Source: Candidatus Nomurabacteria bacterium
GTDB lineage: Bacteria > Patescibacteriota > Minisyncoccia > Phycocordibacterales > UBA9973
Assembly (NCBI GenBank): GCA_963842815.1
Contig: CAWJHU010000002.1
Location: 1 to 42,512 of the forward strand
Direction of reading: 5' to 3'
Length of the DNA: 42,512 nt
Below the pieces are notes generated by a model. The model was not told where the DNA came from, searched no databases, and was given only the letters and a program-made list of their open reading frames with translations. Position numbers and translations under genes: made by a program. This document shows, one piece after another, positions 458-37,824 of the stretch (the stretch's first letter is position 1; the number at the start of each line of letters is the position of its first letter).

Positions 458-766
458 TTACTTCGCAAATTGTTGAAGCGCCGCGTCCATTTGCGTGTCT
501 TTACCAGCGGTGGCGTCGGCGGGGGCCGTAAGCGTAACCGGGATGTCGGGGGTAAGGCCGTTGTGGTTTAAATTAATGCCGTTGGGGGTTATCCACTTGG
601 CCACGGTAACTTTTATGGCTGGGATCTCCGGCTTTTCAAATTTTTGCATCATTTGATTCCAGGTTTTTCCGGATAACGCGCTTACGACATAGGTAGTTTC
701 CCAAAATTTATTTTGTATATTATCATCTTTTATTCCTCCGTCGGTATCTTGATTATTGCCAAATAA
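458..766 (-). pseudogene. Open frame: C-terminal continuation of the upstream prenyltransferase-repeat protein fused to an S41 (CtpA) peptidase C-terminal tail
   Basis: No stop from 766 to 461: NNQDTDGGIKDDNIQNKFWETTYVVSALSGKTWNQMMQKFEKPEIPA, then IKVTVAKWITPNG...GLTPDIPV...DTQMDAA, a typical S41 C-terminus. Confidence 0.7.
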
Positions 767-1977
767 TCAAGTGGAGTATTGCCACTTGTCCCGCCATCAG
801 CGGGATTTTTAACCCAATCTTCCGGTTTTTCATTCAGCGCCAGAATTCCTTCCATGGCCCAGGCGGTGGAAGAAACATTGCCGAAACTGCCATCGTCCTT
901 TTGATTTTGTTTTAAAAATTCTTTTGCTTTTCCCAAAGCATTTTGTATTTCCCCTGACCCAGGGTCAGGGGAGAAGGTTGAAAGTGCTTCTATTCCGGCT
1001 CCAGTCATATCCGCACTTTCATCCCAGGAGCCGTCATTTTTTTGTTTGTCTAAAATAAAATTAATATCCTTATTTATCATTTCGTCGGTTTGGGCAAATC
1101 CGGCATTTTGCAAGACAATCAGGGCAAAAATATCGTCGTTGTCTTCATCCGGATTCCCAAACTGTTTCCCATCAAAATCGGAAACTATTTTTTCTATATA
1201 ATTTTCGCCGTTTGTGCTGTATGGATTAAGACCCAGGGCCATCAGGGCCATGGCATGCCTTTCATAGTCCGTTAAAAGCCCGCCCGGAAGTTTTGATTCA
1301 TTTAAATATTTTGTTAACCCAGCAACTCCTGCTTGAGAATTTTCTGAAGCCAGCGCAAACGCCGCCCAATCCGTATAAAGACTTTCGCCAAAAGAGCCAT
1401 CGTCTTTTTGCTGTGAAATTATAAAATCAAAAGCCTTCTCCACATCAAACTGCGCTTTTACTGCTTTTCCCAGAGGAGCTGTTTCTGCAATAGGAGTGAC
1501 TGTTTCCACTCTGTCTACGTGAGGACCAACAGATCCGTGTGAAATGATTAATGTCGGCGAACCAGGGTCAATAAAATTCAAAGAAATTAAATCGCCGGGT
1601 TGCAATTCGTATTCATTTAATCCGGTCGCTCCCTCTATCTCATTTAAAGACCAGTCCCAATAATGATAAACATCATTACCATCCGTATCCTTGGTTGTAT
1701 AACCGGAAATATTATTTATGGAAGTTACAAAAGCACCCGGAGGCCAGCTCCAATCCCAACTGTTGGGAACCCCCGATTGTAAAATAGCGCAATAAGCAGT
1801 GGCAATATCAGGAGTGTTTATATTATTATCACTGTCACAGGGAGAAACTGTAATATTCTGATTATAAATTGAGTTGGAGGGTGTTTCAATGTCCAGATGG
1901 ATTGTCGTATCGGCAAAAGCGGAAGAGTAAAAAAATAAAATTATAATAACCAATAAAATCTTAGTAATTTTTTTCAT
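730..1977 (-). CDS. Secreted protein with N-terminal DUF4430-like beta domain and prenyltransferase/squalene-cyclase (alpha6/alpha6 barrel) repeats; probable frameshift near 757
   Basis: Signal peptide MKKITKILLVIIILFFYSSAFA (start at 1977). Motif YWDWSLN...GLNEYELQPGD. Repeats QQKDDGSF, QKNDGSW, NQKDDGSF. Confidence 0.8.
   Translation of the reverse strand: MKKITKILLVIIILFFYSSAFADTTIHLDIETPSNSIYNQNITVSPCDSDNNINTPDIATAYCAILQSGVPNSWDWSWPPGAFVTSINNISGYTTKDTDGNDVYHYWDWSLNEIEGATGLNEYELQPGDLISLNFIDPGSPTLIISHGSVGPHVDRVETVTPIAETAPLGKAVKAQFDVEKAFDFIISQQKDDGSFGESLYTDWAAFALASENSQAGVAGLTKYLNESKLPGGLLTDYERHAMALMALGLNPYSTNGENYIEKIVSDFDGKQFGNPDEDNDDIFALIVLQNAGFAQTDEMINKDINFILDKQKNDGSWDESADMTGAGIEALSTFSPDPGSGEIQNALGKAKEFLKQNQKDDGSFGNVSSTAWAMEGILALNEKPEDWVKNPADGGTSGNTPLDYLAIIKIPTEE
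948..975. repeat. In-frame palindromic element, copy 1 (TTTCCCCTGACCCAGGGTCAGGGGAGAA)
   Basis: 23-bp core palindrome 950-972; identical 28-mer at 23745-23772. Confidence 0.9.
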
Positions 1978-2395
1978 ATTTCCAAGAGACCATATTTCCT
2001 TCGTTAATCTTATAATTTGACACTCCAACAGTCGCTTTTTTGCCGTTCACATAATAAATCCAATTTTTATCTCCACTGTTTTTTATTCCATTTATTTCCT
2101 CAATCAGTTTTCCCATGCCGGAATAAGTCTTGTCTTTGAAATTTATTTTTCCTTCTTTCTGCAATTCCAGCATAAAATCATAAACGCTTTCTCCCTTCAC
2201 TATGACTGTTTCTAATTTTTCTCCATTAATTTCCAAGAACGCCTGGGCTTCTTTTTCTGTTTGGGTTGAGGTAAGGGAAAGAGAAGAAATAGAATTCGTG
2301 TTTTTCCCGATATCTTTTGTAAAAACAAAAATTAAAAAGAAAAAAAGCGATAAAGCTAGGCCCAACCATATTATTTTTTTGTTATTTTTTGGCAT
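1961..2395 (-). CDS. DUF4430 domain protein (transcobalamin beta-domain-like), N-terminal membrane anchor
   Basis: SVYDFM...YSGMGKLIEEINGIKNSGDKNWIYYVNGKKATVGVSNYKINEGNMVSWKY; hydrophobic N-terminus. Confidence 0.88.
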   Translation of the reverse strand: MPKNNKKIIWLGLALSLFFFLIFVFTKDIGKNTNSISSLSLTSTQTEKEAQAFLEINGEKLETVIVKGESVYDFMLELQKEGKINFKDKTYSGMGKLIEEINGIKNSGDKNWIYYVNGKKATVGVSNYKINEGNMVSWKYEKNY

Positions 2396-2401
2396 AAAAC
2401 G

Positions 2402-2427
2402 AAAAAAATTCTGCTCAGCAGAATTTT
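2402..2427 (-). terminator. Intrinsic terminator hairpin of the riboswitch expression platform
   Basis: Minus strand AAAATTCTGC-TGA-GCAGAATTTT followed by a T run, just before the DUF4430 ATG. Confidence 0.7.
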
Positions 2428-2475
2428 GGGGCCTTCAAAAAGAAGGCAAAGAAACTTAATCCTGCTCGGGAAAAC

Positions 2476-2571
2476 AAAAATGATTGATAATCGGACTTGT
2501 CCTCGACATAACGCCGAGGCTTACCGTAGCGGCACTGTACTGGAATCTAACCAGTTTCCTCAATCACTTCC
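2476..2571 (-). ncRNA. Cobalamin riboswitch (short, class-II/variant type)
   Basis: Minus strand GTGATTGA-GGAAACTGGTTAGATTCCAGTACAGTGCCGCTACGGTAA-(CCTCGGC..GTCGAGG)-AAGTCCGA-TCAATCAT. Conserved core, B12-box-like AAGTCCGA, closing stem, and position upstream of DUF4430. Confidence 0.82.
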
Positions 2572-2595
2572 TACAATTTTTTAACGAACTCCCTA

Positions 2596-2623
2596 ATTTT
2601 ATGCTTTCTTGATTGTCTGTCAA
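2596..2623 (-). promoter_or_regulatory. sigma70-type promoter for the riboswitch operon
   Basis: TTGACA-16 nt-TAAAAT on the minus strand, about 25 nt upstream of the aptamer. Confidence 0.55.
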
Positions 2624-2740: not shown

Positions 2741-4057
2741 ATGCAAGATTTAGATATTATAAAAATTATTAAGCAAACACTTTTGAATAAAAAATTTATT
2801 TATGTATTTTCAGTCAGCCTAATTTCCCTGGTTATTGTCTCAGCCATTGGCCTGGGGTTCATCTGGTATTTCCGCGCAAATGTTTTTGATTATTTTGCCA
2901 AAGAATATTTGCAGGAGGTGCAGAATCCAAAAAGCAACCTGGGGAATATTGGAAAATCAACGGCTGAACAGATTATAGAAAAACAATCCATTTTTTCTCA
3001 GGATTCTTTCGTTATTGATGCCGTTAAGAAAACCAATCCGTCCGTGGTCTCCATCATCATCAGCAAAAATGTTCCCAAATATGAAGAATACATTGACCCC
3101 AACCAGCAGCAAAATCCATTTGGCGATTTATTCCCCGGTTTTTCTTTTAATATTCCGCAATATCGTCAAAATGGCACCCAAAAACAAGATATTGGCGGCG
3201 GTTCCGGATTTTTTGTATCAAGCGATGGATTAATTGTTACCAATAAGCACGTTGTTGACCAGACGGATGTTGAGTATACGGTTTTTACCAATGATGGAAA
3301 AAAGTATCCGGCAACAGTTGTTGCCCGCGACCCGGTTCTTGATATTGCTTTGATAAAAATTTCTGGCGCCAACTTTACTCCGCTTTCTTTGGGAAACTCT
3401 GATTCTCTACAGGTGGGGCAGAGTGTCATTGCCATTGGCAATGCTTTGGGGGAATTTAGAAATACGGTTTCCGTCGGCGTGGTTTCCGGCCTGGCTCGTT
3501 CCATTACCGCGGGGGATAGTCTTTCCGGCAGTACTGAAACTCTGGACCACGTCATTCAAACGGACGCAGCCATCAATCCCGGGAATTCCGGTGGTCCGTT
3601 GCTTGACCTATCCGGAAATGTAATTGGCGTCAATGTTGCCATTGCAGAAGGCTCCCAAAATGTCGGTTTTGCCCTCCCGATAAATAGCGTTAAAAGCGCG
3701 ATTGAATCGGTCAAAGCTACCGGTAAAATAATAAGGCCGTATTTGGGTATCAGATATGTTGCCATAAATGCGGAAATGAAAGACGCAAATAATTTATCGG
3801 TGGATTATGGCGTATTGGTTAAGGCAGGACAAAATGCAAACGAACTGGCTGTTATTCCGGGTTCTCCTGCCGACAAAGCGGGGATAGTGGAGAATGATAT
3901 TATTTTGGAAGTTGATGGCACAAAGCTGGATGATAAAACTTCCTTGGCTTCTCTCATCAGGGAGAAAAATATTGGCGATGTGATTACCCTAAAAATTCTG
4001 CACAAAGGAACAGAAAAAACCATTCAGGTAACTCTGGAAGCAGCTCCAAATAATTAA
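2741..4057 (+). CDS. htrA: HtrA/DegP-family serine protease with PDZ domain, membrane anchored
   Basis: GGGSGF, TNKHVV (His), DIAL (Asp), TDAAINPGNSGGPL (Ser), C-terminal PDZ. Confidence 0.95.
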   Translation: MQDLDIIKIIKQTLLNKKFIYVFSVSLISLVIVSAIGLGFIWYFRANVFDYFAKEYLQEVQNPKSNLGNIGKSTAEQIIEKQSIFSQDSFVIDAVKKTNPSVVSIIISKNVPKYEEYIDPNQQQNPFGDLFPGFSFNIPQYRQNGTQKQDIGGGSGFFVSSDGLIVTNKHVVDQTDVEYTVFTNDGKKYPATVVARDPVLDIALIKISGANFTPLSLGNSDSLQVGQSVIAIGNALGEFRNTVSVGVVSGLARSITAGDSLSGSTETLDHVIQTDAAINPGNSGGPLLDLSGNVIGVNVAIAEGSQNVGFALPINSVKSAIESVKATGKIIRPYLGIRYVAINAEMKDANNLSVDYGVLVKAGQNANELAVIPGSPADKAGIVENDIILEVDGTKLDDKTSLASLIREKNIGDVITLKILHKGTEKTIQVTLEAAPNN

Positions 4058-4058
4058 T

Positions 4059-5207
4059 TTATTTTACATCCCTGAGTCGCAGAATTATGAAAAATCCAAG
4101 AAGCAAAACTGCACCCAAAACAAAGAAAAGATATTTAAAAGAAGGAGCCAGGAGGAGAATAGGAAAAGCGACGAGGGGAGCAATGATATAAGAAAAAGAA
4201 GGAGCATTTCGGAAAAAACTGATTTCATCGGCATTTTTTTCGGTTATAGTTTTGAAAAAATAACTTTCGTTCATAACTTCTATGATGGCCGCGCCCACGC
4301 GGGTGGCGAAAAGTATCAAAGCCCACAGCCAAAGTATTGATTCCGTAATAAAAGGGATTGCCAGAACAGACAAAATGGTAATAATAAAGCCCCCAAGGAG
4401 CATTTTTTTCTCCCCAATTTTATCCGAAAGCTTGCCCAGAGGAAAATCCACCAAAACGAACGGAATAAGCATTATGGAAAAAATAATGCCGATTCTGTCC
4501 CAGCCGAAATTCATATATTCGTGCAGATATATGGGGGTATAAATTATCATCCAGGCGTAAAAAAATTGCAGAATTAAATTGCTGAGATATATTTTTGAAA
4601 TATTTTTATTTTGAATGAAAGCCCTGATTGTTTTTGTGATGGGAACTTTTTTATATTCCGGGTCTTTGAAATCGCGCAGAAAAAAAATAAAAATAAAAGC
4701 CACCAGAATCATAAACCCGGCGCTGAAAAAATAAATGCCCGAAAAAGAACTTTTTTCTATAATTGACCCGGAGATAAGCTGAGCCACTATCCAGGCCGAA
4801 TTAATTATCATCAAATAAGTTCCCCGAAGCAAGCCGATTTCGGAATTTTTTGAAAAATCTTCCACAAAAATGTCCAATGAGGCAATGATAAAATAAATTG
4901 ACAAGAAATAAAGAATAAAAGCTGGAATCACAACAAAAACACTGCCTCCCAATCCAAGCAAAAGAAGCGAAAAAAATATCAGCAGGCAAGATAGGAAAAT
5001 TACCAGACGATTACCCAAACGAGTCAAAATTTTGGGCATTTTTAATAAACCTATGATAGTTAAAATTGAAGCAATTACGTAAATAATGCCTACATAGTTT
5101 TTACCGACATAAATTTCCAAAAAACTGGAATTTATGTAAGAAGTGATGGCAAATGGGATGGAAAACAAAAAACCCGCCAGGTATATTATTTTTCTATTGT
5201 GTTTCAT
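4059..5207 (-). CDS. MFS transporter
   Basis: About 12 hydrophobic segments; GKLSDKIGEKK motif A. Confidence 0.85.
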   Translation of the reverse strand: MKHNRKIIYLAGFLFSIPFAITSYINSSFLEIYVGKNYVGIIYVIASILTIIGLLKMPKILTRLGNRLVIFLSCLLIFFSLLLLGLGGSVFVVIPAFILYFLSIYFIIASLDIFVEDFSKNSEIGLLRGTYLMIINSAWIVAQLISGSIIEKSSFSGIYFFSAGFMILVAFIFIFFLRDFKDPEYKKVPITKTIRAFIQNKNISKIYLSNLILQFFYAWMIIYTPIYLHEYMNFGWDRIGIIFSIMLIPFVLVDFPLGKLSDKIGEKKMLLGGFIITILSVLAIPFITESILWLWALILFATRVGAAIIEVMNESYFFKTITEKNADEISFFRNAPSFSYIIAPLVAFPILLLAPSFKYLFFVLGAVLLLGFFIILRLRDVK

Positions 5208-7135
5208 ATACTTAATACCACCGGAATAACCAGAGGCCTTTTGGCCGTTTTTTGATACAGAAATTTTGAAACCGTTTCGCCCAAATTAGCCTTGATGTAA
5301 TCAAGGTCAACCAAATTATTTTTTATGGCAACATCTTCCACTCCTTTTTTGATGATAATTCGCACTTGGCGCAGAAGTTCCTGATTTTCTTTTAAATAGA
5401 CAAATCCTCGCGATATTAAATCCGGAGATTTTTTTAATTTTCCGGTTTTTTGGTCTACCAAAGCAATAATAACAAACATTCCGTCCTGGGCCAGCATTTG
5501 ACGGTCCCTGATAACGACATCCTGCACGTCGGAAATAGCCAATCCATCCACCATCATTAATCCGGACGGAGCTTTTTCTTTGCGCACCGTCATTTTTTCT
5601 CCATTGGCCGATATCTCAATAATTGAACCGTTGTCCGGAACCACGATATTTTCTTCGGGCATTCCCATTTCCATGGCCAGCTCCTTATGCAGCTCCAGAT
5701 GATAATGATGTCCGTGGATAGGAATGAAAAACTTCGGGTGCATTTTTTTATGAAGCCATCTTATGTCTTCTTTATTGCCATGGCCGGTGGCGTGGACGAA
5801 ATCTTCTCCGGCGGTGCGATAGCTGATGATGCGTACGCCCTGTCTGGATAAATTATCTTTTATTCTTTGCACCGCCCTTTCATTTCCCGGAACAATGGAG
5901 GCCGAAAGAATAATGGTATCTCCTTTGCTCAACGAAAATTTCGTATGCGATTTATTGGATGCTCGGGAAAGCGCCGCGAATTCTTCTCCCTGGGAGCCGG
6001 TCATCAATATCACCACTTTATTGGGCGGATAATTATTTACTTCCTCTATGGGGATAATAGTGCCTTTTTTGGGCTTGAAATATCCAGCTTCAATGGCCAC
6101 GTCTACGTTGGTTTTCATTGAACGTCCGTCAATGGCGATTTTTTTGCCGAGAGATTCGGCTACTTTTACCACGTGTACCAAACGGGTAATATGGGAAGCA
6201 AAGGCGGCAATAATTATTCTGCCATTTATTTTTTTTATCAGATTTTCTAGTCCCTGATGCACTTTTATTTCGGGTAGAGAAAATCCTTCATTTTCAATAT
6301 TGGTGGAATCGGTCATCAGCAGAAGTATTTTTGCCTTGTCAAAAGTGGAATATTCTTTTTCTTCTTCGGGGGTTACGATTCCGTCCACCTGGTCTAATTT
6401 ATAATCTCCCGGAGTGACAATCCAGCCATTTTTTGTTTCAATAATAATTCCCATTGAATCGGGGATTGTGTGAGTGACGCCAAAAAATCGAACTTTTATT
6501 TTTCCGCAGGTTACTGTTCCATCTTTTTCCACCACTTCCGCCTTCATGGGAGGCAAATGGGGGAATTCCGCCTGGCGTTTCTTCATCAGAAGCACCGAAA
6601 GATTTCTGGAGTATACCGTCGGATTGCCGATGCGCGAGAGAACAATGGGCACGCCTCCAATATGGTCCAAGTGTCCGTGGGTTATAAATAAACCGCGTAT
6701 TTTGTCTTTATGCTCTTCAAGATAAGTGGTATTTGGAATAACATAATCCACTCCGGGCGTTTCTTCATTGGAAAAATGCATACCTGCGTCAATGATTATG
6801 ATGTCATCGCCGATTTCTATGGCGGTCATATTCTTTCCGATTTCTTCCACTCCGCCGAGAGTAATAATGCGAACCACTCCTTCGGCGGGAGGAGGAATTT
6901 TAGTTTCATTTGTATTTTTATATCCGCTTCTGGTTCCGAATGAACGACCGCCGCCCCGGGACTGTTTATAATTTCTTTTGGAGTATTGATAGGTGGAATT
7001 TTTTGCAGGTTTTTTGGATGTTGGGCGTCTGGAATCTTGGCGTCCGGCGTCCGGTTGGGCAGATTTTTTTTCTCCGCTCGTCGGATGAGCGGGTTCCATC
7101 ATAACAGAGCTAAAAGACAATCTAGTTTTTCTCAT
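5204..7135 (-). CDS. rnj: Ribonuclease J
   Basis: LGGVEEIGKNMT, THGHLDHIGG, HTIPDS, TGSQGE, HATGHG, PIHG. Confidence 0.96.
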   Translation of the reverse strand: MRKTRLSFSSVMMEPAHPTSGEKKSAQPDAGRQDSRRPTSKKPAKNSTYQYSKRNYKQSRGGGRSFGTRSGYKNTNETKIPPPAEGVVRIITLGGVEEIGKNMTAIEIGDDIIIIDAGMHFSNEETPGVDYVIPNTTYLEEHKDKIRGLFITHGHLDHIGGVPIVLSRIGNPTVYSRNLSVLLMKKRQAEFPHLPPMKAEVVEKDGTVTCGKIKVRFFGVTHTIPDSMGIIIETKNGWIVTPGDYKLDQVDGIVTPEEEKEYSTFDKAKILLLMTDSTNIENEGFSLPEIKVHQGLENLIKKINGRIIIAAFASHITRLVHVVKVAESLGKKIAIDGRSMKTNVDVAIEAGYFKPKKGTIIPIEEVNNYPPNKVVILMTGSQGEEFAALSRASNKSHTKFSLSKGDTIILSASIVPGNERAVQRIKDNLSRQGVRIISYRTAGEDFVHATGHGNKEDIRWLHKKMHPKFFIPIHGHHYHLELHKELAMEMGMPEENIVVPDNGSIIEISANGEKMTVRKEKAPSGLMMVDGLAISDVQDVVIRDRQMLAQDGMFVIIALVDQKTGKLKKSPDLISRGFVYLKENQELLRQVRIIIKKGVEDVAIKNNLVDLDYIKANLGETVSKFLYQKTAKRPLVIPVVLSI

Positions 7136-7168
7136 TGTTTTTTTGTTTTTTAATAATAAAAGTAGTTT

Positions 7169-8920
7169 TTATTTGGAAAATATTTTCCAAACGTTATCTG
7201 TTTCAGTATACCATAAATATGAATTTAAGAATCTATCTCTGGGGGCAATAAGATGATTTATTGAAAATCCTTGCAGGTTTTTTGACACCACATATATAAA
7301 ATCAGGACTGTACAAAAAGACGGTGGGCATATCTTTTTTAATTTCATTTTCAAATTGGATGTACTTTTGCATCCTTGCGTTTTCATCAATGGTGACAAAG
7401 GCATCTTCCAATATTTTGTCCACTTTGGCGCTGGTGTACATGGCCACATTAAGCCCCGGGTCTTTTATCTGCGAAGAATGCCAAAAAGCGAACAAATCGG
7501 ATTCATTATTGATAATTTCTCCAAAAAGCAAAGTGTCATATTTTCGGGGACGAATAACGCTCTGGTTTAAATTGCCGATTTCAAAAGTTTTCACATCAAC
7601 CTTCATTCCAATATTTTCCAAATCTTGTTTTATCAGTTCGGCTGATTTTGCCAATTCCGGAGCATCCCCCGTGGAAATGGAAAATTGCAAATAGGTTGCG
7701 GTTTTTTTCTTTTTCTTATCAACCATGGTTTTTTGCAAAAATCCATCCGCGCCCTTGGTCCAGCCGTCTTTGCTTAAAATATCCTGCGCCTTTTTAACAT
7801 TATCTTCCTGGGAAGTGGCATTCGCATTATTTAATTTTTGATAATCAAGCATATTGGGCGGTATCGGACTGTCAATAACAACTCCATAGCCCGAGAGGAC
7901 ACTGCGGACAATATTATTTTTATCAACCGCAAGGTCAATGGCCTTGATTATGTTTTTATCGGTGAAAATCTGATTCTGGCTCTGGTTGAAGAAAAGTCCG
8001 AATACCCGGGGAAGGGGCAAAGATTCTACCCGATAATTTTCTTCCTGTAATATTTGCGCATTGGCGGGAGTAATGGAACTTATCTGGTCCACTTCTCCCT
8101 TTTCCAGCGCCGAAATTTGGTCATTTTCATTTTGATAAAAACGCAATGTTATTTTGCTGAGGTATGGCTCGCCCAAATTAAATTTTTTAAAGGGTACCAG
8201 GTCGTAATAATCTATTAATCCTCCGGACTGCTTGCTTACATTTGCGACTTCGTAGGGCCCCGACCCGATTGGCTGTATATTCGCATCATTCAATTCAATG
8301 GGGGTGGTGCTCCATAGAGAGGCCGGCATTATGCCAACAATGGCATTTTCCAAAAAGGAGGCATAGGGTTGTTTTAGAGTGAATTTGATTGTTTTTTCGT
8401 CTATTTTTTCAACGTTTACTCCATCCCAGTTTCCCTTTTTAGGACTTTTTATGACCGGGTCCTTAATTTCATTTATGGTAAAAACCACATCGTCCGCAGT
8501 AACAGGTTTGCCGTCGTGAAAATATATATTATCTCTTAGAGTAAAAGTATATGTTAAACCATCTTTGGACATGTCATATTTAAGGGCCAAATCCGGAGTA
8601 AGCGTACCGTCGGAGTTTTTTCTCATTAGTCCCGAATAAATGAGTGAGACCAAATCTTGGTCCGCATCGGAAAAAGCCAGGACAGGATTTATGAAGCGGG
8701 GAGTACCCACAATGCCTTCGGTAATAGTCCCCCCTTTCATGGCTACTCTTACCATAAAAGATTTATTAATGTTCTCCAGTATCACCAATGTGCTTAGGCA
8801 AAGAACAATAACCAGTCCAAGAAAAACAAAATATTCTCTTTTGGAAAAATGAGAGATGGCTTTTTTTATTTCGTTTTTGGACGGCAATAAATTACGTATG
8901 CGGCTATAAAAATTTTCCAT
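7169..8920 (-). CDS. Peptide/nickel ABC transporter substrate-binding protein (family 5), N-terminal TM
   Basis: INPVLA, LIYSGL, YTFTLRDNIYFHDGKPVTADDVVFT, PIGSGPY. Confidence 0.9.
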   Translation of the reverse strand: MENFYSRIRNLLPSKNEIKKAISHFSKREYFVFLGLVIVLCLSTLVILENINKSFMVRVAMKGGTITEGIVGTPRFINPVLAFSDADQDLVSLIYSGLMRKNSDGTLTPDLALKYDMSKDGLTYTFTLRDNIYFHDGKPVTADDVVFTINEIKDPVIKSPKKGNWDGVNVEKIDEKTIKFTLKQPYASFLENAIVGIMPASLWSTTPIELNDANIQPIGSGPYEVANVSKQSGGLIDYYDLVPFKKFNLGEPYLSKITLRFYQNENDQISALEKGEVDQISSITPANAQILQEENYRVESLPLPRVFGLFFNQSQNQIFTDKNIIKAIDLAVDKNNIVRSVLSGYGVVIDSPIPPNMLDYQKLNNANATSQEDNVKKAQDILSKDGWTKGADGFLQKTMVDKKKKKTATYLQFSISTGDAPELAKSAELIKQDLENIGMKVDVKTFEIGNLNQSVIRPRKYDTLLFGEIINNESDLFAFWHSSQIKDPGLNVAMYTSAKVDKILEDAFVTIDENARMQKYIQFENEIKKDMPTVFLYSPDFIYVVSKNLQGFSINHLIAPRDRFLNSYLWYTETDNVWKIFSK

Positions 8921-10148: not shown

Positions 10149-11700
<1,552 letters not shown>

Positions 11701-11870
11701 TTTGAAAATCGTTATAAAGTGCTTTGCATTTTATAGCTTATTGAGTCGGTATTGTGTAGCTCAATTGACTACACAATAGTTTTTATTCAAACTTAAAATG
11801 AGTAAGACTATATGGAAAGACATATAAAATAAAAAAGTTTATATAGAACGAAACAAAACATAGAACAGCA

Positions 11871-11907: not shown

Positions 11908-12378
11908 CACCTCACCCCGACCCCTCTCCGGAGTACCAGAGAGGGGAGAAATTAGAAGTTCATTTTTTAGACAATTCCTTAATTTTTGTTCTAATTTTAT
12001 TTAAGACGGAATTCAAATTATTTTCTATTTCAGAATTCCAAAATCTTAATTCATAAATATATTTAGATTCCAAATATATTGTCCTTTCTGTGTCGTATTC
12101 TCTGTTTTCTTTTAGATTATGGATAGAACCATCAAGCTCTATGGAAAGTTTTATTTTGGGTACATAAAAATCAAGAATATACATATCAATTGGATATTGT
12201 CTTCTAAATTTTATACCTATGTTGCTATTTCTTAACTCCTGCCAGAGTATTTTTTCTGCTTTTGTTTCTTCTTTTCTCAAATATCTAGCTTTAATTATTG
12301 TTTTAAATTTAGTCACTAAATAATTATATAATAAAATTCCCCTCGCCAGTAATCTGGAGAGGGGGTAGGGGTGAGGTG
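11908..12378. mobile_element. Putative DUF559 cassette bounded by inverted ~41-bp hairpin repeats
   Basis: Left CACCTCACCCCGACCCCTCTCCGGAGTACCAGAGAGGGGA (11908-11947). Right end (12337-12378) reverse-complements to CACCTCACCCCTACCCCCTCTCCAGATTACTGGCGAGGGGAA. Confidence 0.65.
11960..12316 (-). CDS. DUF559 (Vsr-like PD-(D/E)XK) endonuclease domain protein
   Basis: LRKEETKAEKILWQELR...KFRRQYPI..YILDFY...IELDGSIH...D.ERT..L...LRFWN; GTG start. Confidence 0.9.
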   Translation of the reverse strand: MTKFKTIIKARYLRKEETKAEKILWQELRNSNIGIKFRRQYPIDMYILDFYVPKIKLSIELDGSIHNLKENREYDTERTIYLESKYIYELRFWNSEIENNLNSVLNKIRTKIKELSKK

Positions 12379-13331: not shown

Positions 13332-13402
13332 CGGGCCGTAGTATACCGGTCGTACGCATCCTTCGGGAGGATGTAGACTGGGTTCGATTCCCAGCGGCCC
13401 GA
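13332..13402 (+). tRNA. tRNA-Pro (CGG), CCA not encoded
   Basis: CGGGCCG/CGGCCCG acceptor stem; anticodon arm CATCC-TTCGGGA-GGATG; TTCGATT T-loop. Confidence 0.93.
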
Positions 13403-28419: not shown

Positions 28420-30881
28420 ATGGCAAAAAAATCTGGCGAACCAATTGAAATACGCACAGACGAAATTCTCCCAGTGGATATGGTGAAAGAAATGAAAGAA
28501 TCTTATTTGGCTTATGCCATGTCGGTTATTACTGCGCGCGCCTTGCCGGATGTCAGAGACGGATTGAAACCGGTGCACCGCAGAATTCTGTTTGCCATGA
28601 ACGAAATGGGGCTCACTTCCACTGCCCGTTTCAGAAAATCTGCCGCCGTGGTCGGAGACGTGCTTGGGAAATATCATCCGCACGGGGATGTGGCTGTTTA
28701 TGATTCAATGGTAGGAATGGCTCAGGAATTTTCTTATCGTTATCCTCTTGTTTTAGGACAAGGAAACTTCGGTTCCATTGATGGAGACAATGCCGCTGCT
28801 ATGCGTTATACGGAAGCAAAAATGTCCAAAATTTCAAACGAACTTTTGCGCGACTTAGAAAAAGAAACAGTTGATTTTCGTCCAAATTATGACCAGACCC
28901 GCAAAGAACCAGTGGTTTTTCCGTCGGCTGTTCCGGCGCTTCTTCTGAACGGAACTCTTGGTATTGCCGTCGGTATGGCGACGAATATTCCTCCGCATAA
29001 TTTGGCGGAAGTGGTAGACGCCACAATTTATTTGATTGAAAATGGAGACAGCACCACCGAAGATTTGATGCAATTTATAAAAGGACCGGATTTTCCGACC
29101 GGAGGGATTGCTTACGATTACAAAGATATGCTTCATGCCTATGGTACCGGACGGGGCGGGGTGGTTTGTCGGGGCGAGGCGGAAATAGTAGAGCAAAAAG
29201 GTGGGAATTTTCCAAATTATCATCACTTCCATTCCTTATCGCGTGAATAAATCAAATTTAATAATGTCTATTGCCGAGTTGGTGCAGGAAAAAAAGTTGG
29301 ATGGCATGAAAGGACTTCGGGACGAATCGACCAAAGACATCAGAATTGTGATTGATTTGAAAAATAGCGCGCATCCGGAAAAAGTTCTGAATTATATTTA
29401 CAAAAATACTCAACTGGAATCAAATTTCAATTTTAATATCGTGGCCCTGGTGGATGGCGTGCCGCAAACCCTTTCTCTCAAATCAATTCTCTCTGAATTT
29501 ATTTCTCACAGAAAAGAAGTGGTAAAAAGAAGAGGCAGAATATGATTTGCGCAAAGCGGAAGAACGAGAGCATATTTTACTCGGTTTGAAAAAAGCGCTG
29601 GATAAAATTGACCGGGTCATTACGGTTATCCGCGGGTCCAAAGATGGACAGATTGCCAAATTTAATTTGATGAAAGAATTCAAATTTTCGGAACTGCAAA
29701 CAATGGCCATTTTGGAAATGAAATTGCAAAAATTGGCCGGACTGGAAAGAAAAGCCGTGGAAAATGAGCTTGAAGAAAAACAGAAATTTATCAAGGAAAT
29801 AAAGGATCTTTTAGCCAGTCCGAAAAAAATTCTCGAAGTTATTTCTCGAGAATTGAAAGAAATTCGCGAGAAATATGCGGATGAACGCAGGACAAAAATA
29901 GTGAAAGGCGGGAGTAAAGAAATTTCCGATGAAGATTTGATTCCGGAAAAAGAAACAATGCTTGTTTTTACCGCCGGCGGATATGTCAAACGTACCGACC
30001 CTTCCGAATATCGTTCTCAAAAACGAGGGGGAGTGGGGGTGGTTGATTTGGAAACAAAAGAAGAAGATTTTGTGACCATGCTGGTGTCCGGTTCCACCCA
30101 TAGCGATTTGCTTTTCTTTACCAATTTGGGCAAGGCCTATCAGATGAAAATGTATGATATTCCGGAAGGCCGTCGGGCAACTCGCGGGAAATCTATTATG
30201 AATTTTCTCCAGCTCGGGAATGATGAAAAAGTCAATTCTATTTTACCGATGCCGAAAGAATTTGAAAAAAACGGCTACCTCGCTGATGCTGGTAACGAAA
30301 AATGGCACCGCTAAAAAAATGTCCAGCGAGAGTTTCAAAGATGTGCGCCGAAGCGGAATTATTGCTATTCGTTTGGACAAAGGAGACCAGCTTGTTTCCG
30401 CCTTGCTGACGGAAAAAGGGGATGAAGTGATGGTGGCCACTTCCGGAGGGCAATCCATCAGATTTAAAGAATCCGACATGAGAGAAATGGGTAGAACAGC
30501 CGGAGGAGTGCGTGGAATAAAACTTGGAAAAGGTGACGAAGTTATCGGCGTGGATGTTATGAAAAAAGATAATAAAGCTGGAGCATTTCTGACCATGAGC
30601 GCCAATGGTTTTGGCAAGAAAACTTCTCTGAAAGAATATAAAGTTCAAAAGACGGGGAGGTTCTGGCATTAAAACCGCCAAAGTAACGCCTAAAACCGGA
30701 AAGCTTATCGTGGCGAAAGTTTTGACCGGAGAGCGAAGAAGAATTGATAGCCATGTCCAAAAAAGGCCAAGTCATCAGAACAGCCCTGAAAGATATTTCT
30801 TCTCTGGGTCGCCAAACCCAAGGCGTGACCATTATGCGTCTGCGCGCTGGGGACGGTATTGCTTCTCTTGTTTGTGCGTAA
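28420..30881 (+). CDS. gyrA: DNA gyrase subunit A, split by about five single-base insertions (near 29210, 29533, 30262, 30650, 30731)
   Basis: [31 protein letters not shown], and beta-pinwheel repeats incl. QKRGGVG. Removing one base at each site restores a continuous GyrA. Confidence 0.95.
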
Positions 30882-31427: not shown

Positions 31428-32717
31428 AAGGAAATTTTCAAATCATAATTTTAATTGTATTCATTGTGGCCGCTATTTTTGGTGTTTTGGTTTTTTCCGG
31501 CGCCATACCTCTGGGCAATTCTTCCGGGAGCACCACCCAGGGGACCGTTGTTCTGTGGGGTACGGTAAATGCCAGCATTGTCTCGCCCTTGCTTGATGAT
31601 TTTAATCGCGCCAATCACCACCTTTGTCACAAAATATGTGGAAAAATCTCCGGACACTTTTGACCATGATTTACTGGAAGCATTGGCTGCGGGAACGGGA
31701 CCGGATATGTTTTTTATTTCCGATGATTTGGCTTACAAATACAGCAATAAAATTTTTACCATTCCCTATACAAGTTTCCCGATTAATACTTTTAAAAGTA
31801 ATTATGTCGGAGCGGGAGAAGTGTTTTTAACCTCAAAGGGAGTTTTGGCTTTTCCTCTGACCGTTGATCCCTTGATGATGTATTACAACCGAAGCATGCT
31901 GGATGCAAATGGAATTGTTTATCCTCCGTCCTATTGGGATGAATTTGGCAATCTCGTTCCGCTTTTAACTAAAAAAGACAGCAAAGGAATGATTACAAAA
32001 AGCGCGGTTGCTCTGGGACAATTTTCAAATGTTCTCATGCCAAAGATATACTGGCCACTCTTTTTATGCAGGCAGGAAATCCGATTGTAGCCGAGAAAGA
32101 TGGGTCTTTTATTTCTGCTTTAAGTGAAAATAATGGGGCAATATGATTTAGGTTCAATTTTGAAGTTTTATACGGATTTTGCTGATCCATTGAAAAGTGT
32201 TTATTCTTGGAATAAATCTTTTTCCAGTTCGGAGGATGTTTTCAGCGCGGAAAATTTGGCATTTTATTTCGGTTATGCCAGCGAACTTCAGTCTTTGGTT
32301 AATAAAAACCCCAATGAAAATTTTTTGGTTACACCTATACCCCAGATTAGAAATAGCAGTTTCAAGCTCACTGGAGCTCACGTAACGGGCATTGCCATTT
32401 CTTCTTTTTCCAAAAATTTTAATACCGCTTTTACCGCAGCCGGTCTTATGGCAAACGGGAGTTTTGCTTCTAGACTTGCCAATGCGTTAGGCATTGCCCC
32501 GGCTCGTCGGGATTTGCTTAACATCAAACCAACGGACGCATATCTTCCGATTTTCTATAATTCCGCGTTTTATCGCTAGAAGCTGGCTTGACCCATCGCC
32601 CGCGGATACCGATACTATTTTCAGGGGATGGTTGAAAAAGTGCTTTCCGGCAGTATGTCCACAACAGATGCGGTGAGCGACGCTGGCGCCAAACTTGGTT
32701 TATTATTAGTCAAATAA
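31424..32717 (+). CDS. Extracellular solute-binding protein (sugar ABC type), fragmented by several indels
   Basis: N-terminal TM, VVLWG, AAGTGPD, FPLTVDPLMMYYNRSML, FYFGYASEL, APARRDLL across successive frames. Confidence 0.8.
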
Positions 32718-32722: not shown

Positions 32723-33133
32723 ATGAAAAAAATAAATTTAAAATTATTTCTAATCACTACATTTATTTTAGTTGCAGCCTCTTCGTTGTTTTTTGTTTCC
32801 GGTTCCATGGTTTTTGCCCAAGATTCCGGCACAGGGCTGATTCCTTGTGTGAATAATTGCGGTTTTGCTGATATAATGAAATTAATCAATGGAGTGGTGG
32901 GGTTTATTTTTAAAGATTTGGTTATACCTATTTCCGCCATAATGTTCGCCTATGCGGGATTTGAGTTGGTGACTTCCGGCGGTTCGACTGAGAAAAAATC
33001 CCAGGCAAAGAAAATATTTTTGAATGTAGCCATTGGCCTGGCCTTTGCAGCTGGCGCTTATCTTATAGTACATGCGATATTGGGGATAGTGGGGGTTAAT
33101 ACCGGGAACGGCTGGAACTGGTTTGGATTTTAG
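32723..33133 (+). CDS. TrbC/VirB2-like (T4SS-type) pilin
   Basis: Signal peptide, GLIPC..NC, two hydrophobic helices separated by TSGGSTEKKSQAKK. Confidence 0.8.
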   Translation: MKKINLKLFLITTFILVAASSLFFVSGSMVFAQDSGTGLIPCVNNCGFADIMKLINGVVGFIFKDLVIPISAIMFAYAGFELVTSGGSTEKKSQAKKIFLNVAIGLAFAAGAYLIVHAILGIVGVNTGNGWNWFGF

Positions 33134-33157
33134 GATTATAAAGAATATAATTAAAAT

Positions 33158-33535
33158 ATGAAAAATATTAAGAAAAATTTGGATAAAATCATTTTAGCAA
33201 CTTTTGTATTTGCTTGGCCAGTTGTTTCTTTAGCTACTTGTATTAGCGGTGATCTTAGCAATCCAGACTGCAATAAAATTGACAACCCTTTAAAAAGTAC
33301 CTCCACACTACCTGACTTTATTCACAATATTTTAACCGGAGTAATCAAGATTGGCTCGCCTATCATTGTTTTAGCTGTGGTTTACTGCGGTTTTCTTTTT
33401 GTTTCTGCGCAAGGCAATCCGGAAAAAATAAGCGAAGCCAAACGTGCCCTGCTTTATACTTTAATTGGCGCAGCCATACTCCTGGGGTCGTGGGGTATCG
33501 CAACGCTTATAACCAGTACTGTCACAGCCTTATAA
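33158..33535 (+). CDS. TrbC/VirB2-like pilin
   Basis: NPL...GFLFVSAQGNPEKISEAKRALLYTLIG. Confidence 0.82.
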   Translation: MKNIKKNLDKIILATFVFAWPVVSLATCISGDLSNPDCNKIDNPLKSTSTLPDFIHNILTGVIKIGSPIIVLAVVYCGFLFVSAQGNPEKISEAKRALLYTLIGAAILLGSWGIATLITSTVTAL

Positions 33536-33560
33536 ATAATGTTTTTCAGTATTAAATAAA

Positions 33561-34184: not shown

Positions 34185-34277
34185 AGTTGCGCTGGTCTTG
34201 TTTATTTTATGATATAATAGGTAGATTATTATTAGTATTATAAGGTCGCTTTATTATTAGTATTATTATAAGAATTT

Positions 34278-37502: not shown

Positions 37503-37824
37503 TTACTTTTCTCGAAGCAGTTCGTCAATTTTTTGCCTGTTTTTTTCTCCGCGATCTATTTGGATATCAAGAAAAGGAATTATTTTTATTTTTAATTTTT
37601 CTTTAAAAATTCCCGCAATTCTTTGCGTTTTCTTTTTACGAATTCCAAAGCGCCGGTTTCTTTTTCATCGGCAATACGGTTATAAAAATAGTTGCTCGTT
37701 TTAAGTCGGGGGAGACGGTGCAGGAGGTGACAGTAATCAGCGAAGTCCCATTGATTTTCCGTTCCAAAAATTGAGCTCGCCAGCTCTTTAATAAGATTCG
37801 CCAACTTTTTCATTTCTTTGCCAT
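37503..37824 (-). CDS. rbfA: Ribosome-binding factor A, fragmented by indels
   Basis: Across frames: NLIKELA...TSLITVT.CTVSPDLKRATIFITV..DEKETGALEFVKRKRKELREFL...IPFLDIQID. Directly downstream of infB. Confidence 0.85.

What the first reader, a model, noticed from the sequence alone, without database searches (positions are those of the whole stretch)
730..2623. Cobalamin riboswitch driving a split transcobalamin-like capture module in a CPR genome
Seen: promoter, B12-riboswitch core and terminator, then a membrane-anchored DUF4430 protein and a secreted protein with a second beta-grasp-like domain plus alpha-barrel repeats. Established: animal transcobalamin/intrinsic factor bind B12 between an alpha6/alpha6 barrel and a DUF4430-like beta domain, and DUF4430 genes often sit with ECF CbrT. 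Inference: a two-part surface B12 scavenger in a metabolically minimal epibiont, with no transporter gene visible here. It may feed a class II RNR or take B12 from the host.
Basis: partly seen in the sequence, partly recalled or inferred. Interest (0 to 1): 0.7.

Follow-up and report, generated by a model that had tools for sequence, protein, structure and literature searches.

The report
B12 riboswitch controlling surface B12-capture proteins
A vitamin-B12-sensing RNA switch in a tiny lake bacterium (Patescibacteria/CPR) controls two surface proteins built from the same two domains as animal transcobalamin; this is a correct reading, but it is a new example of an operon type predicted in 2007, not a new kind of system.

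Summary
On the minus strand lie a conserved sigma-70-type promoter (2623-2596), a cobalamin-riboswitch aptamer (2585-2449), an antiterminator/terminator pair (2466-2401), gene 1 (2395-1961) and gene 2 (from 1977). Gene 1 is a membrane-anchored DUF4430 protein, the transcobalamin beta domain. Gene 2 is a secreted beta domain plus a 12-helix alpha/alpha toroid.

The window's aptamer scores below Rfam's gathering cut-off (44.9 against 50 bits). However, the same leader precedes the gene pair in all 78 related Patescibacteria loci that have upstream sequence. It shows compensatory base changes, and it passes Rfam cut-offs in 8 of 15 loci scanned.

Gene 2 in the window has a 1-nt homopolymer deletion (753-754) and a junction at 613/614 to a peptidase S41 remnant. 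An independent assembly, otherwise identical, encodes an intact 523-aa protein.

The window holds no transporter or B12-dependent enzyme. In 12 related loci the module lies directly downstream of a class II (AdoCbl-dependent) ribonucleotide reductase. An ECF S-component-like gene is also present in 11 of them and a corrinoid adenosyltransferase in at least 7.

The architecture (beta domain fused to toroid, plus a second solo beta-domain protein) was described for Firmicutes in 2007. I rate it a new member of a known kind, of moderate interest.

The parts
2596..2623 (-). Sigma-70-type promoter: -35 TTGACA (2623-2618), 16-nt spacer, -10 TAAAAT (2601-2596)
   Evidence: Consensus scan gives 11 of 12 matches. 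TTGACA and the TAnAnT hexamer are nearly invariant across 55 orthologous leaders.
2449..2585 (-). Cobalamin (AdoCbl-type) riboswitch aptamer
   Evidence: RF01482 at 44.9 bits, E = 4.2e-7, below the gathering score of 50. Orthologues pass the gathering score for RF00174, RF01482 or RF01689 in 8 of 15 loci scanned. In the alignment, 96.9% of cells are paired against 23-49% in slid controls; 13 pairs carry compensatory changes; 0 of 500 shuffles reach the observed values.
2458..2471 (-). Invariant box UCCCGAGCAGGA (2471-2460). Its AGCAGGAUU part (2466-2458) is the antiterminator strand.
   Evidence: The box is invariant in 55 of 55 leaders. It pairs with AAUUCUGCU (2425-2417), the 5' arm of the terminator. 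This helix is the minimum-free-energy fold of the nascent transcript (-16.3 kcal/mol), and is close in energy to the terminator fold in the full leader (-20.1 against -21.1 kcal/mol). The switching role is inferred.
2431..2447 (-). Spacer hairpin GCCUUC-UUUUU-GAAGGC between the antiterminator strand and the terminator
   Evidence: It appears in the minimum-free-energy folds. A hairpin of variable sequence sits at the same place in the orthologues.
2401..2427 (-). Intrinsic terminator: 10-bp stem, 3-nt loop, U-run; it ends 6 nt before the start codon
   Evidence: Terminator scan. The stem is conserved in 55 leaders, with G-U/A-U changes and 99.7% of cells paired.
1961..2395 (-). Gene 1: 144-aa membrane-anchored solo transcobalamin-beta-like (DUF4430/SLBB) protein. 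TM helix at about 2306-2380, disordered linker, beta-grasp domain at about 1970-2245.
   Evidence: Pfam PF14478 at E = 7.5e-12. AlphaFold2 model with mean pLDDT 81.8. The top Foldseek matches are the transcobalamin beta domain (5np4 and 5no0: TM-score 0.80-0.82; 5np4 rmsd 1.4 A), followed by full-length transcobalamin, intrinsic factor and haptocorrin. 440 homologues were found, those with source names being Patescibacteria.
614..1977 (-). Gene 2: secreted beta-domain plus alpha6/alpha6-toroid protein. Signal peptide 1912-1977, beta domain about 1570-1908, linker, toroid about 643-1443. As it stands in the window it stops at 730.
   Evidence: Pfam matches. AlphaFold2 model of the read-through, mean pLDDT 86.5, with 12 helices between residues 179 and 435. 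Foldseek matches class II terpene cyclases (about 1e-6), transcobalamin (1.8e-5), intrinsic factor, haptocorrin, and the transcobalamin beta domain (TM-score 0.70). tblastn with homologues shows two reading frames. The intact 523-aa version is in L081.
753..754 (-). Frameshift site: AAA in the independent contig reads AA here (1-nt deletion), producing the premature stop at 730-732
   Evidence: blastn of L081 against the window gives 1936 nt with 0 mismatches and 1 gap, at this site.
458..613 (-). C-terminal remnant of a peptidase S41 gene joined to gene 2 at 613/614. It replaces the native gene 2 tail (...KEGWLRNLLEKIFSIF) and the convergent downstream gene.
   Evidence: Pfam Peptidase_S41 profile positions 123-165 of 165, E = 7.3e-5. 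Identity with L081 stops at window position 614. A related contig in run X1 matches 524-615 and has further sequence that does not fit the window. No S41 gene lies near the module in 80 relatives.

Best explanation
This is a two-gene operon, repressed by B12, that encodes a cell-surface corrinoid-capture module in a Nomurabacteria-like member of the Patescibacteria.

Switch (inferred). When cobalamin is scarce, the nascent leader forms an antiterminator helix between AGCAGGAUU (2466-2458) and AAUUCUGCU (2425-2417), and RNA polymerase reads through. When the aptamer binds a cobalamin, probably AdoCbl, the invariant UCCCGAGCAGGA box is held by the folded aptamer. The 10-bp terminator then forms directly in front of the start codon and the operon is switched off.

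Proteins. Gene 1 puts a transcobalamin-type beta-grasp domain on the outer face of the membrane, on an N-terminal anchor and a flexible linker. Gene 2 is exported by a signal peptide and carries a second beta domain tethered to a 12-helix alpha/alpha toroid. These are the two domains that sandwich B12 in transcobalamin, here in the order beta then alpha.

Proposed function (inferred). The toroid and a beta domain clamp a corrinoid outside the cell. The ligand is then passed to a membrane importer encoded elsewhere, to supply an AdoCbl-dependent class II ribonucleotide reductase. The candidate importer is the ECF S-component-like protein that sits beside nrdJ in relatives.

Shown: the RNA family and its structure, the operon's conservation, the protein folds, the export signals, and the synteny with nrdJ, the adenosyltransferase and the S-component in relatives.

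Inferred: ligand binding, the hand-off between proteins, the identity of the importer, and the presence of nrdJ in this genome.
For: Riboswitch:
- Rfam AdoCbl hit over the full model length, E = 4.2e-7.
- The leader is conserved in 78 of 78 loci with upstream sequence.
- Covariation in P1, P4 and P6: 13 pairs with compensatory changes, 0 of 500 shuffles as high.
- Orthologues pass Rfam gathering scores, for example L080 at 69 bits and L073 at 60 bits for RF01482.
- The terminator and antiterminator folds are close in energy, and the antiterminator is the preferred fold of the nascent RNA.

Proteins:
- DUF4430 at E = 7.5e-12.
- The best structural matches of gene 1 are transcobalamin beta domains, intrinsic factor and haptocorrin.
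- Gene 2's N-terminal domain also matches the transcobalamin beta domain, and its toroid matches transcobalamin, intrinsic factor and haptocorrin.
- Among 95 family members, 76 match DUF4430 and 37 match Cobalamin_bind PF01122 at E <= 0.01.

Context:
- The gene pair is adjacent in 76 of 76 loci that extend far enough, and in most of them the next gene is convergent.
- In 12 of 80 loci the module follows an AdoCbl-dependent ribonucleotide reductase (TIGR02505, E = 1.5e-89; Pfam RNR-II insertion domain).
- An ECF S-component-like protein (PF07155) is present in 11 of those loci. A PduO-type adenosyltransferase (PF01923, E = 8.8e-45) is present in 6, and a CobA/BtuR-type one in L039.

Precedent: Burroughs et al. 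2007 predicted B12 scavenging for the same architecture in other bacteria (PMC1796856).
Against: - No binding or regulation experiment exists for any member of this family.
- The window's aptamer is below Rfam's gathering score.
- By sequence the toroid looks more like squalene-hopene cyclase repeats than transcobalamin. A family profile finds only terpene cyclases among PDB sequences. PF01122 scores 22.1-22.6 bits against a cut-off of 25. Terpene cyclases also rank above transcobalamin in Foldseek.
- The window contains no B12-dependent enzyme, adenosyltransferase or S-component (tblastn; Pfam).
- I could not show that these genes exist elsewhere in this genome.
- Gene 2 is broken in the window as given.
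- Split transcobalamin-like proteins of L. sakei were proposed to bind heme rather than B12 (preprint 10.1101/864751).
- The contact that sequesters the antiterminator strand (kissing loop or P13) could not be identified, because all the candidate bases are invariant.
Confidence: 0.72

Rival explanations
1. The module binds a corrinoid, but mainly to hoard or withhold it at the cell surface (competition with neighbours or the host, or storage) rather than as the first step of an uptake pathway.
For: There is no transporter in the operon in any of 76 loci. Two extracellular binding proteins give high capacity. Repression by B12 fits any function needed under scarcity.
Against: In 11 loci the module is contiguous with both an S-component-like membrane protein and a B12-using enzyme; 5 of those 11 plus L049 also carry a PduO-type adenosyltransferase, and L039 a CobA/BtuR-type one. 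That points to use, not just sequestration. An organism with a small genome would be unlikely to keep a pure competition device this widely.
Confidence: 0.12
2. The proteins bind a different ligand (heme or another tetrapyrrole, or an isoprenoid or cell-envelope compound). The B12 riboswitch then links their expression to B12 status only indirectly.
For: The toroid is closer in sequence to terpene cyclase and prenyltransferase repeats. It carries a nearly invariant DNDDIFAL motif that resembles the DxDDTA motif of class II cyclases (the resemblance is from my own knowledge). The L. sakei homologues were proposed to scavenge heme.
Against: Riboswitches nearly always control genes for the synthesis, transport or use of their own ligand (established knowledge). 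Both beta domains belong to the transcobalamin clade. A single exported barrel of about 270 aa lacks the two-barrel cavity of class II cyclases, and the NCBIfam cyclase score is far below its cut-off (44 against 323 bits). The synteny is with B12 genes, not heme or isoprenoid genes.
Confidence: 0.08
3. In this particular genome the module is a decaying pseudogene: gene 2 is truly frameshifted and fused to a peptidase remnant, so the system no longer works here.
For: The window has a 1-nt deletion at 753-754 and a junction at 613/614. Other genes in the window are also fragmented.
Against: An independent assembly of run ERR10755942 is identical over 1936 nt except for that one base, and it encodes an intact 523-aa protein with the family's conserved tail. 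The deletion is in a homopolymer. Essential genes (gyrA in four ORFs, alaS, a translational GTPase) are fragmented too. That pattern points to assembly errors rather than biology.
Confidence: 0.08

Closest known systems
Bacterial transcobalamin-like SLBB (soluble-ligand-binding beta-grasp) surface proteins fused to an alpha/alpha toroid, with a second paralogous SLBB protein in the same operon (Burroughs, Balaji, Iyer & Aravind 2007, PMC1796856)
   Same: Same two domains, and the same order (SLBB N-terminal to the toroid) as the Bacillus example in that paper. Both have signal peptides and a second solo SLBB protein in the operon. Both occur in organisms that do not make B12. The predicted role is the same: scavenging B12.
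   Different: Those operons 'generally' also encode CbiO-like ATPase and CbiQ-like membrane components. Here, and in 76 relatives, the operon has only the two binders. The lineage is Patescibacteria, not Firmicutes or archaea. Control by a cobalamin riboswitch is documented here; the paper does not mention riboswitches (0 occurrences).
Animal transcobalamin, intrinsic factor and haptocorrin (PF01122 plus PF14478; PDB 2bb5, 2pmv, 4kki)
   Same: An alpha6/alpha6 barrel plus a beta-grasp domain with the clade-specific hairpin. Gene 1 and the N-terminal domain of gene 2 superpose on the transcobalamin beta domain (TM-score 0.70-0.82), and the toroid aligns with transcobalamin, intrinsic factor and haptocorrin.
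   Different: The domain order is reversed (beta then alpha). There is an extra separate beta-domain protein. Identity is only 11-17%. PF01122 scores below its cut-off in the window protein. The His-Co ligation and the contact residues were not examined.
Lactobacillus sakei Lsa1839/Lsa1840 (preprint 10.1101/864751)
   Same: Transcobalamin beta-like and alpha-like proteins encoded as separate genes in one transcription unit in a bacterium, thought to capture a tetrapyrrole outside the cell.
   Different: They form part of an ECF-like transporter operon and were proposed to bind heme. Here there is no ECF gene in the operon, a B12 riboswitch lies upstream, and the toroid protein keeps its own beta domain.
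Cobalamin riboswitches (Rfam clan CL00101: RF00174, RF01482, RF01689) with transcription-terminator expression platforms
   Same: The match covers the full model. P1, P4 and P6 are supported by covariation. The core around GCCGCUACGGUAAG...AAGUCCG is invariant. An intrinsic terminator competes with an upstream antiterminator strand. The element lies in the 5' leader of B12-related genes.
   Different: The window copy is a compact variant (short P4 and P6) that falls below the gathering scores. The terminator directly abuts the start codon, with no Shine-Dalgarno sequence in between. The tertiary contact that captures the antiterminator strand is not identified.
Bacteroides BtuG/BtuH surface B12-binding lipoproteins (from my own knowledge: Wexler et al. 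2018; Putnam et al. 2022)
   Same: Functional analogy: extracellular high-affinity B12 capture proteins encoded under B12 riboswitch control, feeding a membrane transporter.
   Different: Unrelated folds. They are lipoproteins on a Gram-negative outer membrane and are encoded together with the BtuB transporter.

Membership tests
Cobalamin riboswitch (Rfam clan CL00101) | Covariance-model score at or above the curated gathering score | tested here: not met
   In the window, RF01482 scores 44.9 bits against a gathering score of 50, and nothing was reported in gathering mode. Orthologous leaders do pass: L002, L003, L008, L012 and L039 (RF00174), L080 at 69 bits and L073 at 60.3 bits (RF01482), and L032 (RF01689).
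Cobalamin riboswitch (Rfam clan CL00101) | Conserved multi-helix aptamer fold supported by covariation | tested here: met
   55 orthologues: 96.9% of cells paired against 23-49% when partners are slid; 13 of 36 pairs carry compensatory changes against 5-7 in controls; 0 of 500 shuffles are as high. The RNAalifold consensus agrees.
Cobalamin riboswitch (Rfam clan CL00101) | Expression platform, in the 5' leader of a B12-related gene | tested here: met
   The order is promoter, aptamer, antiterminator/terminator, start codon. The downstream genes carry transcobalamin domains.
Cobalamin riboswitch (Rfam clan CL00101) | Binds a cobalamin and changes gene expression | not testable with these tools
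   This needs in-line probing or transcription assays.
Transcobalamin C-terminal / DUF4430 / SLBB transcobalamin-like clade (PF14478) | HMM score above the cut-off, and a beta-grasp fold with the clade's inserted hairpin | tested here: met
   Gene 1 scores 46 bits against 23.8. Its model matches 5np4 and 5no0 at TM-score 0.80-0.82 (5np4 rmsd 1.4 A). The N-terminal domain of gene 2 scores only 17 bits in the window protein, but 76 of 95 family members match, and Foldseek gives TM-score 0.70 to 5np4.
Eukaryotic cobalamin-binding protein alpha domain (PF01122) | HMM score above the cut-off | tested here: not met
   22.1-22.6 bits against a cut-off of 25. 37 of 95 family members match at E <= 0.01, best 1.1e-7. 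A family profile finds no transcobalamin, intrinsic factor or haptocorrin among PDB sequences.
Eukaryotic cobalamin-binding protein alpha domain (PF01122) | A single alpha6/alpha6 barrel that faces a beta domain | tested here: inconclusive
   There are 12 helices between residues 179 and 435, and the toroid aligns with transcobalamin, intrinsic factor and haptocorrin at TM-scores of 0.40-0.58 normalised to the target. Terpene cyclases score at least as well.
Class II terpene cyclase (squalene-hopene cyclase family) | Two-barrel beta-gamma architecture, family-level HMM score, and a DxDD catalytic acid in a closed cavity | tested here: not met
   Gene 2 has only one barrel of about 270 aa behind a signal peptide. 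The NCBIfam squalene cyclase model scores 44 bits against a cut-off of 322.7. Only the QW-type repeats match (PF13243 at 34 bits). A DNDD motif is present, but its role is unknown.
ECF-linked SLBB scavenging operon (as described by Burroughs et al. 2007) | CbiO-like ATPase and CbiQ-like membrane protein encoded in the same operon | tested here: not met
   The operon has two genes and is followed by a convergent gene in most of the 76 loci. The window has no ECF genes. An S-component-like gene lies nearby in only 11 of 80 loci, and upstream of the riboswitch.

The most novel reading that the evidence does not exclude
Many Patescibacteria may import corrinoids by a relay that has not been described. 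A secreted beta-toroid binder and a membrane-tethered solo beta domain, both made only under B12 scarcity, would hand the cofactor to a small ECF-S-component-like membrane protein. In some of the loci examined that protein's gene overlaps nrdJ by a few bases and lies with a corrinoid adenosyltransferase gene, with no ECF energising module nearby. This would be a minimal capture, import, adenosylation and ribonucleotide-reduction pathway on which DNA synthesis in these reduced genomes depends.
Probability: 0.25. Interest if true: 0.65.

Novelty: new member of a known kind. Interest (0 to 1): 0.45.

Why it matters
Patescibacteria have very small genomes and are thought to depend on other cells for most cofactors, yet little is known about how they obtain them. 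This locus gives a concrete, testable example. It is a B12-sensing switch controlling surface proteins of the transcobalamin type. It is conserved in hundreds of protein clusters, named as Patescibacteria wherever a source gives a name. In some relatives it lies next to the AdoCbl-dependent ribonucleotide reductase that would make DNA synthesis depend on scavenged B12.

It also extends the bacterial relatives of animal B12 carriers to a deep-branching lineage. The compact riboswitch variant, which Rfam's cut-offs miss in about half of the loci scanned, could be used to improve the covariance models. For annotation, the proteins are currently named 'terpene cyclase/mutase' or 'prenyltransferase/squalene oxidase repeat' proteins, which is misleading.

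Tried and rejected
- Rfam in gathering mode on the whole window gave no riboswitch. Only the permissive scan found it.
- phmmer of both proteins, and profiles of both families, against PDB sequences gave no transcobalamin hit. The link to transcobalamin rests on Pfam and on fold comparison.
- Laying four lake-metagenome runs on 300-2700 gave coverage too thin to judge the frameshift at 753-754. It only showed a related contig with sequence that does not fit the window next to position 615.
- I tried to find nrdJ or the S-component on the window's own 126-kb contig. The contig look-ups returned only short Logan contigs. The S-component profile search listed no hit with the contig length of the window or of its closest relatives among the best 120 of 2347 hits. 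Whether this genome has them stays open.
- The conserved MFS transporter at 4059-5207 was considered as the importer and set aside. It shares synteny in 52 of 80 loci, but it sits in a separate transcription unit with RNase J and a peptide-type binding protein. It matches only generic sugar, drug and nucleoside MFS models, and no MFS B12 importer is known (my own knowledge).
- No riboswitch was found in front of the S-component-nrdJ operon.
- Literature searches for DUF4430, Patescibacteria or CPR together with cobalamin or riboswitch found nothing specific.
- The kissing-loop partner of L5 could not be assigned, because every candidate base is invariant.
Full report
**1. What is in the sequence**

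All features lie on the minus strand. A sigma-70-type promoter (TTGACA, 16 nt, TAAAAT; 11 of 12 matches) sits at 2623..2596, and a 10-bp terminator hairpin with a T-run at 2427..2405. The whole-window Rfam scan at gathering thresholds found only the 16S rRNA and five tRNAs. A permissive scan of 2300-2800 gave one significant match: RF01482 (AdoCbl riboswitch aptamer) at 2585..2449, covering model positions 1-149. It scores 44.9 bits against a gathering score of 50, with E = 4.2e-7. The leader folds better than shuffled versions (z = -2.98). Gene 1 starts at ATG 2395, 6 nt after the T-run.

**2. Is the riboswitch real?**

I built a profile of gene 1 homologues and used it to fetch 80 loci from species-representative genomes. 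Nearly all carry Patescibacteria-type names (Nomurabacteria, Paceibacterota, Minisyncoccia and similar); a few titles look like binning noise.

- A single-sequence nhmmer search with the window's leader hit 78 of the 80 loci, always just upstream of the gene and on its strand. The two misses (L030, L075) are cut at the contig end.
- In an alignment of 55 full-length leaders, the promoter hexamers, the aptamer core, a 12-nt box UCCCGAGCAGGA and the terminator arms are invariant or nearly so. P4 and P6 carry insertions of variable length, as is usual for this riboswitch class.
- RNAalifold predicts the expected helices, with 13 pairs showing compensatory changes.
- I counted pairs on a structure that follows Rfam's P5/P6 assignment. 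96.9% of cells are paired, against 23-49% when partners are slid. 13 pairs have double changes, against 5-7 in the controls. None of 500 shuffles reaches any observed measure. Examples are P6 pair 191/220 (CG 28, UA 25) and P1 pair 111/234 (GC 46, AU 8).
- Orthologous leaders pass Rfam's curated cut-offs in 8 of 15 loci scanned: RF00174 in L002, L003, L008, L012 and L039; RF01482 in L080 (69 bits) and L073 (60 bits); RF01689 in L032.

The window copy is therefore a compact, sub-threshold member of the cobalamin riboswitch clan, not a chance match.

**3. Expression platform (inferred)**

AGCAGGAUU (2466-2458), inside the invariant box, is complementary to AAUUCUGCU (2425-2417), the 5' arm of the terminator. 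In the nascent transcript that ends before the terminator's 3' arm, this helix, enclosing a spacer hairpin (2447-2431), is the minimum-free-energy fold (-16.3 kcal/mol). In the full leader the terminator fold (-21.1 kcal/mol) and the antiterminator fold (-20.1 kcal/mol) are nearly equal in energy.

This is the usual logic of an OFF switch: the ligand-bound aptamer captures the antiterminator strand, the terminator forms, and transcription stops. Because the terminator abuts the start codon and there is no Shine-Dalgarno sequence, it may also mask translation initiation. Which tertiary contact captures the box could not be determined, since all candidate bases are invariant.

**4. Gene 1 (2395..1961, 144 aa)**

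- Pfam DUF4430 at 46 bits, E = 7.5e-12.
- The AlphaFold2 model (pLDDT 81.8) has an N-terminal helix at residues 6-30, a disordered linker at 30-47 and a confident beta-grasp domain at 51-142.
- The 19 Foldseek matches with E <= 0.001 are all transcobalamin (full length or isolated beta domain, 5np4 and 5no0, TM-score 0.80-0.82; 5np4 rmsd 1.4 A), intrinsic factor, haptocorrin and one uncharacterised Ruminococcus protein, 3u7z. Ubiquitin-like folds follow about three orders of magnitude behind.
- 440 homologues were found. Where sources name them, the names are Patescibacteria.

**5. Gene 2**

The product starts at ATG 1977, overlapping the stop of gene 1 by 17 nt, with a signal peptide (...SSAFA/DT). 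Homologues are about 500-620 aa, whereas the window ORF gives 415 aa. The missing stretch (...QDTDGGIKDDNIQNKFWETTYVVSALSGKTWNQMMQKFEKPEIPAI) is present in the window in another frame: tblastn gives frame -3 down to 757 and frame -2 over 763-602.

An independent Logan contig of run ERR10755942 (L081, 2378 nt) carries the identical gene 1. It matches window 614..2548 with no mismatch and one gap: AAA where the window has AA, at 753-754. It encodes an intact 523-aa protein ending ...KEGWLRNLLEKIFSIF, followed by the convergent gene that most relatives have at that position.

Beyond 614 the window instead continues into the last roughly 50 codons of a peptidase S41 gene (Pfam profile positions 123-165 of 165, E = 7.3e-5). 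No S41 gene lies near the module in any of the 80 relatives. A related contig in a lake metagenome matches the S41 part and has further sequence that does not fit the window next to 615.

Other genes in the window are fragmented as well: gyrA in four ORFs (28420-30672), alaS (1-294) and a translational GTPase (37592-39358). I conclude that the truncation is most likely an assembly fault, but raw reads are needed to settle it.

**6. Fold of gene 2**

I modelled the read-through sequence against 94 homologues (pLDDT 86.5, pTM 0.62). It shows a signal helix, a beta domain at 24-136, a disordered linker at 142-160, and twelve helices between 179 and 435, that is, one alpha6/alpha6 toroid.

- Foldseek ranks class II terpene cyclases first (about 1e-6), then transcobalamin (1.8e-5), intrinsic factor and haptocorrin. 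The N-terminal domain matches the transcobalamin beta domain at TM-score 0.70.
- By sequence the toroid resembles squalene-hopene cyclase repeats.
- Pfam Cobalamin_bind is just below its cut-off in the window protein, but matches 37 of 95 family members. DUF4430 matches 76 of 95.
- A single exported barrel cannot be a class II cyclase, and the NCBIfam cyclase score is far below its cut-off.

The protein is therefore an SLBB-toroid protein of the transcobalamin-like kind, with reversed domain order. 'Split' is only partly apt, because gene 2 alone has both domains and gene 1 adds a second, membrane-tethered beta domain.

**7. Genomic context**

I clustered ORFs from the 80 loci. The two genes are adjacent in all 76 loci that extend far enough, and the next gene is on the opposite strand in most of them. 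The operon is therefore bicistronic, with no transporter.

Upstream synteny is shared by about 50 loci including the window: a family-5 solute-binding protein, RNase J, an MFS transporter, then HtrA or a cytidylyltransferase-like gene. These form separate transcription units.

In 12 more distant loci the module lies directly downstream of a class II ribonucleotide reductase with an ATP-cone, an RNR-II insertion domain and TIGR02505 (AdoCbl-dependent RTPR) at E = 1.5e-89. Around it:

- 11 loci have a 173-189-aa ECF S-component-like membrane protein (PF07155; 29.3 bits against 26.7 in L080).
- 6 loci have a PduO-type corrinoid adenosyltransferase (PF01923, E = 8.8e-45). L039 has a CobA/BtuR-type one (PF02572, E = 9e-52).

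The trio of S-component, nrdJ and adenosyltransferase also occurs without the module in other Patescibacteria genomes, with the S-component and nrdJ genes overlapping. The S-component family has more than 2300 clusters. No riboswitch precedes that trio.

The window itself has none of these genes (Pfam survey), and I could not reach the rest of its 126-kb contig.

**8. Comparison with what is known**

Burroughs et al. 2007 (PMC1796856) defined the SLBB superfamily. They described bacterial transcobalamin-like SLBB domains fused N- or C-terminally to an alpha/alpha toroid, with signal peptides, often with a second paralogous SLBB protein in the operon, usually together with CbiO/CbiQ-like genes, in organisms that lack B12 synthesis. 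They predicted B12 scavenging. A preprint on L. sakei describes separately encoded transcobalamin alpha- and beta-like proteins in an ECF-like operon, and argues for heme. I found no paper on this module, or on B12 riboswitches, in Patescibacteria.

The locus is therefore a new member of a known kind, with three differences: the lineage, the absence of ECF genes in the operon, and the documented riboswitch control.

**9. Verdict**

- the true extent of gene 2 and its breakage in the window;
- the module is not strictly 'split';
- the architecture is already known in other bacteria.

The best explanation is a B12-repressed surface corrinoid-capture module that serves an AdoCbl-dependent ribonucleotide reductase through an importer encoded elsewhere (confidence about 0.7). 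Ligand binding, the hand-off between proteins and the importer's identity are inferences. Interest is moderate (0.45).

Noticed in passing
window 28420-30672 (gyrA), 1-294 (alaS), 37592-39358 (translational GTPase), 31569-32579 (solute-binding protein): Several genes, some of them essential, are broken into consecutive ORFs. gyrA is in four pieces. alaS stops after 65 codons and appears to continue in another frame. Only the first ~150 aa of a GTPase (GTP_EFTU domain) form an ORF, followed by several short same-strand ORFs. The contig looks indel-prone, which bears on how to read the gene 2 frameshift.
   Followed up: partly
window 458-613 and the junction at 613/614: The last roughly 50 codons of a peptidase S41 gene are joined in frame to the shifted frame of gene 2. 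They replace its native tail and the convergent gene seen in relatives. This is either an assembly chimera or a strain-specific deletion. An independent contig (L081) lacks the junction.
   Followed up: partly
L026, L032, L039, L061, L071, L073, L074, L076, L079, L080, L013, L049; also L083/L084 and L085: A conserved Patescibacteria gene set: an ECF S-component-like membrane protein, an AdoCbl-dependent class II ribonucleotide reductase, and a PduO- or CobA-type corrinoid adenosyltransferase. In several loci the S-component gene overlaps nrdJ by a few bases (e.g. L083/L084, L085). No ECF ATPase or T component lies nearby, and no riboswitch was detected in front. The S-component-like protein is a candidate corrinoid importer.
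   Followed up: partly
L081 572-2143 (intact gene 2) and homologues P0002-P0059: Full-length homologues end in a low-complexity linker followed by a conserved C-terminal amphipathic motif, W[FL]xxxLxxIFxxF (for example KEGWLRNLLEKIFSIF). This may be a membrane or envelope anchor, or a sorting signal. It is missing from the window copy.
   Followed up: no
window about 1120-1143 (gene 2 residues 279-286): A nearly invariant DNDDIFAL motif sits at the start of a toroid helix. It resembles the DxDDTA acid motif of class II terpene cyclases, here in an exported single-barrel protein. It may line the ligand-binding face.
   Followed up: no
window 10150-11702: A complete 16S rRNA gene (1344 bits) has a 35-nt stretch where the model expects 6 nt near its 5' end. 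No 23S gene follows. Instead come a DUF559 endonuclease-like ORF (11960-12316), a D-Ala-D-Ala ligase gene and a tRNA (13332-13402). The rRNA genes therefore appear to be unlinked.
   Followed up: no
window 32723-34655: Four tandem paralogous genes encode small TrbC/VirB2-type (T4SS pilin-like) proteins. One of them has two pilin domains.
   Followed up: no
window 2741-8920 and 80 related loci: The gene order family-5 solute-binding protein, RNase J, MFS transporter, HtrA protease is conserved next to the B12 module in roughly 50 of 80 genomes. The MFS transporter matches only generic models, and its substrate is unknown.
   Followed up: partly
L011 6723-6984; L055, L042, L022, L004, L041 leaders: Some orthologous leaders carry extra hairpins: one between the promoter and P1, or a roughly 35-nt hairpin between P1 and the invariant box. 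About ten have a long P4 extension. The window has the minimal form, which probably explains its sub-threshold Rfam score.
   Followed up: no
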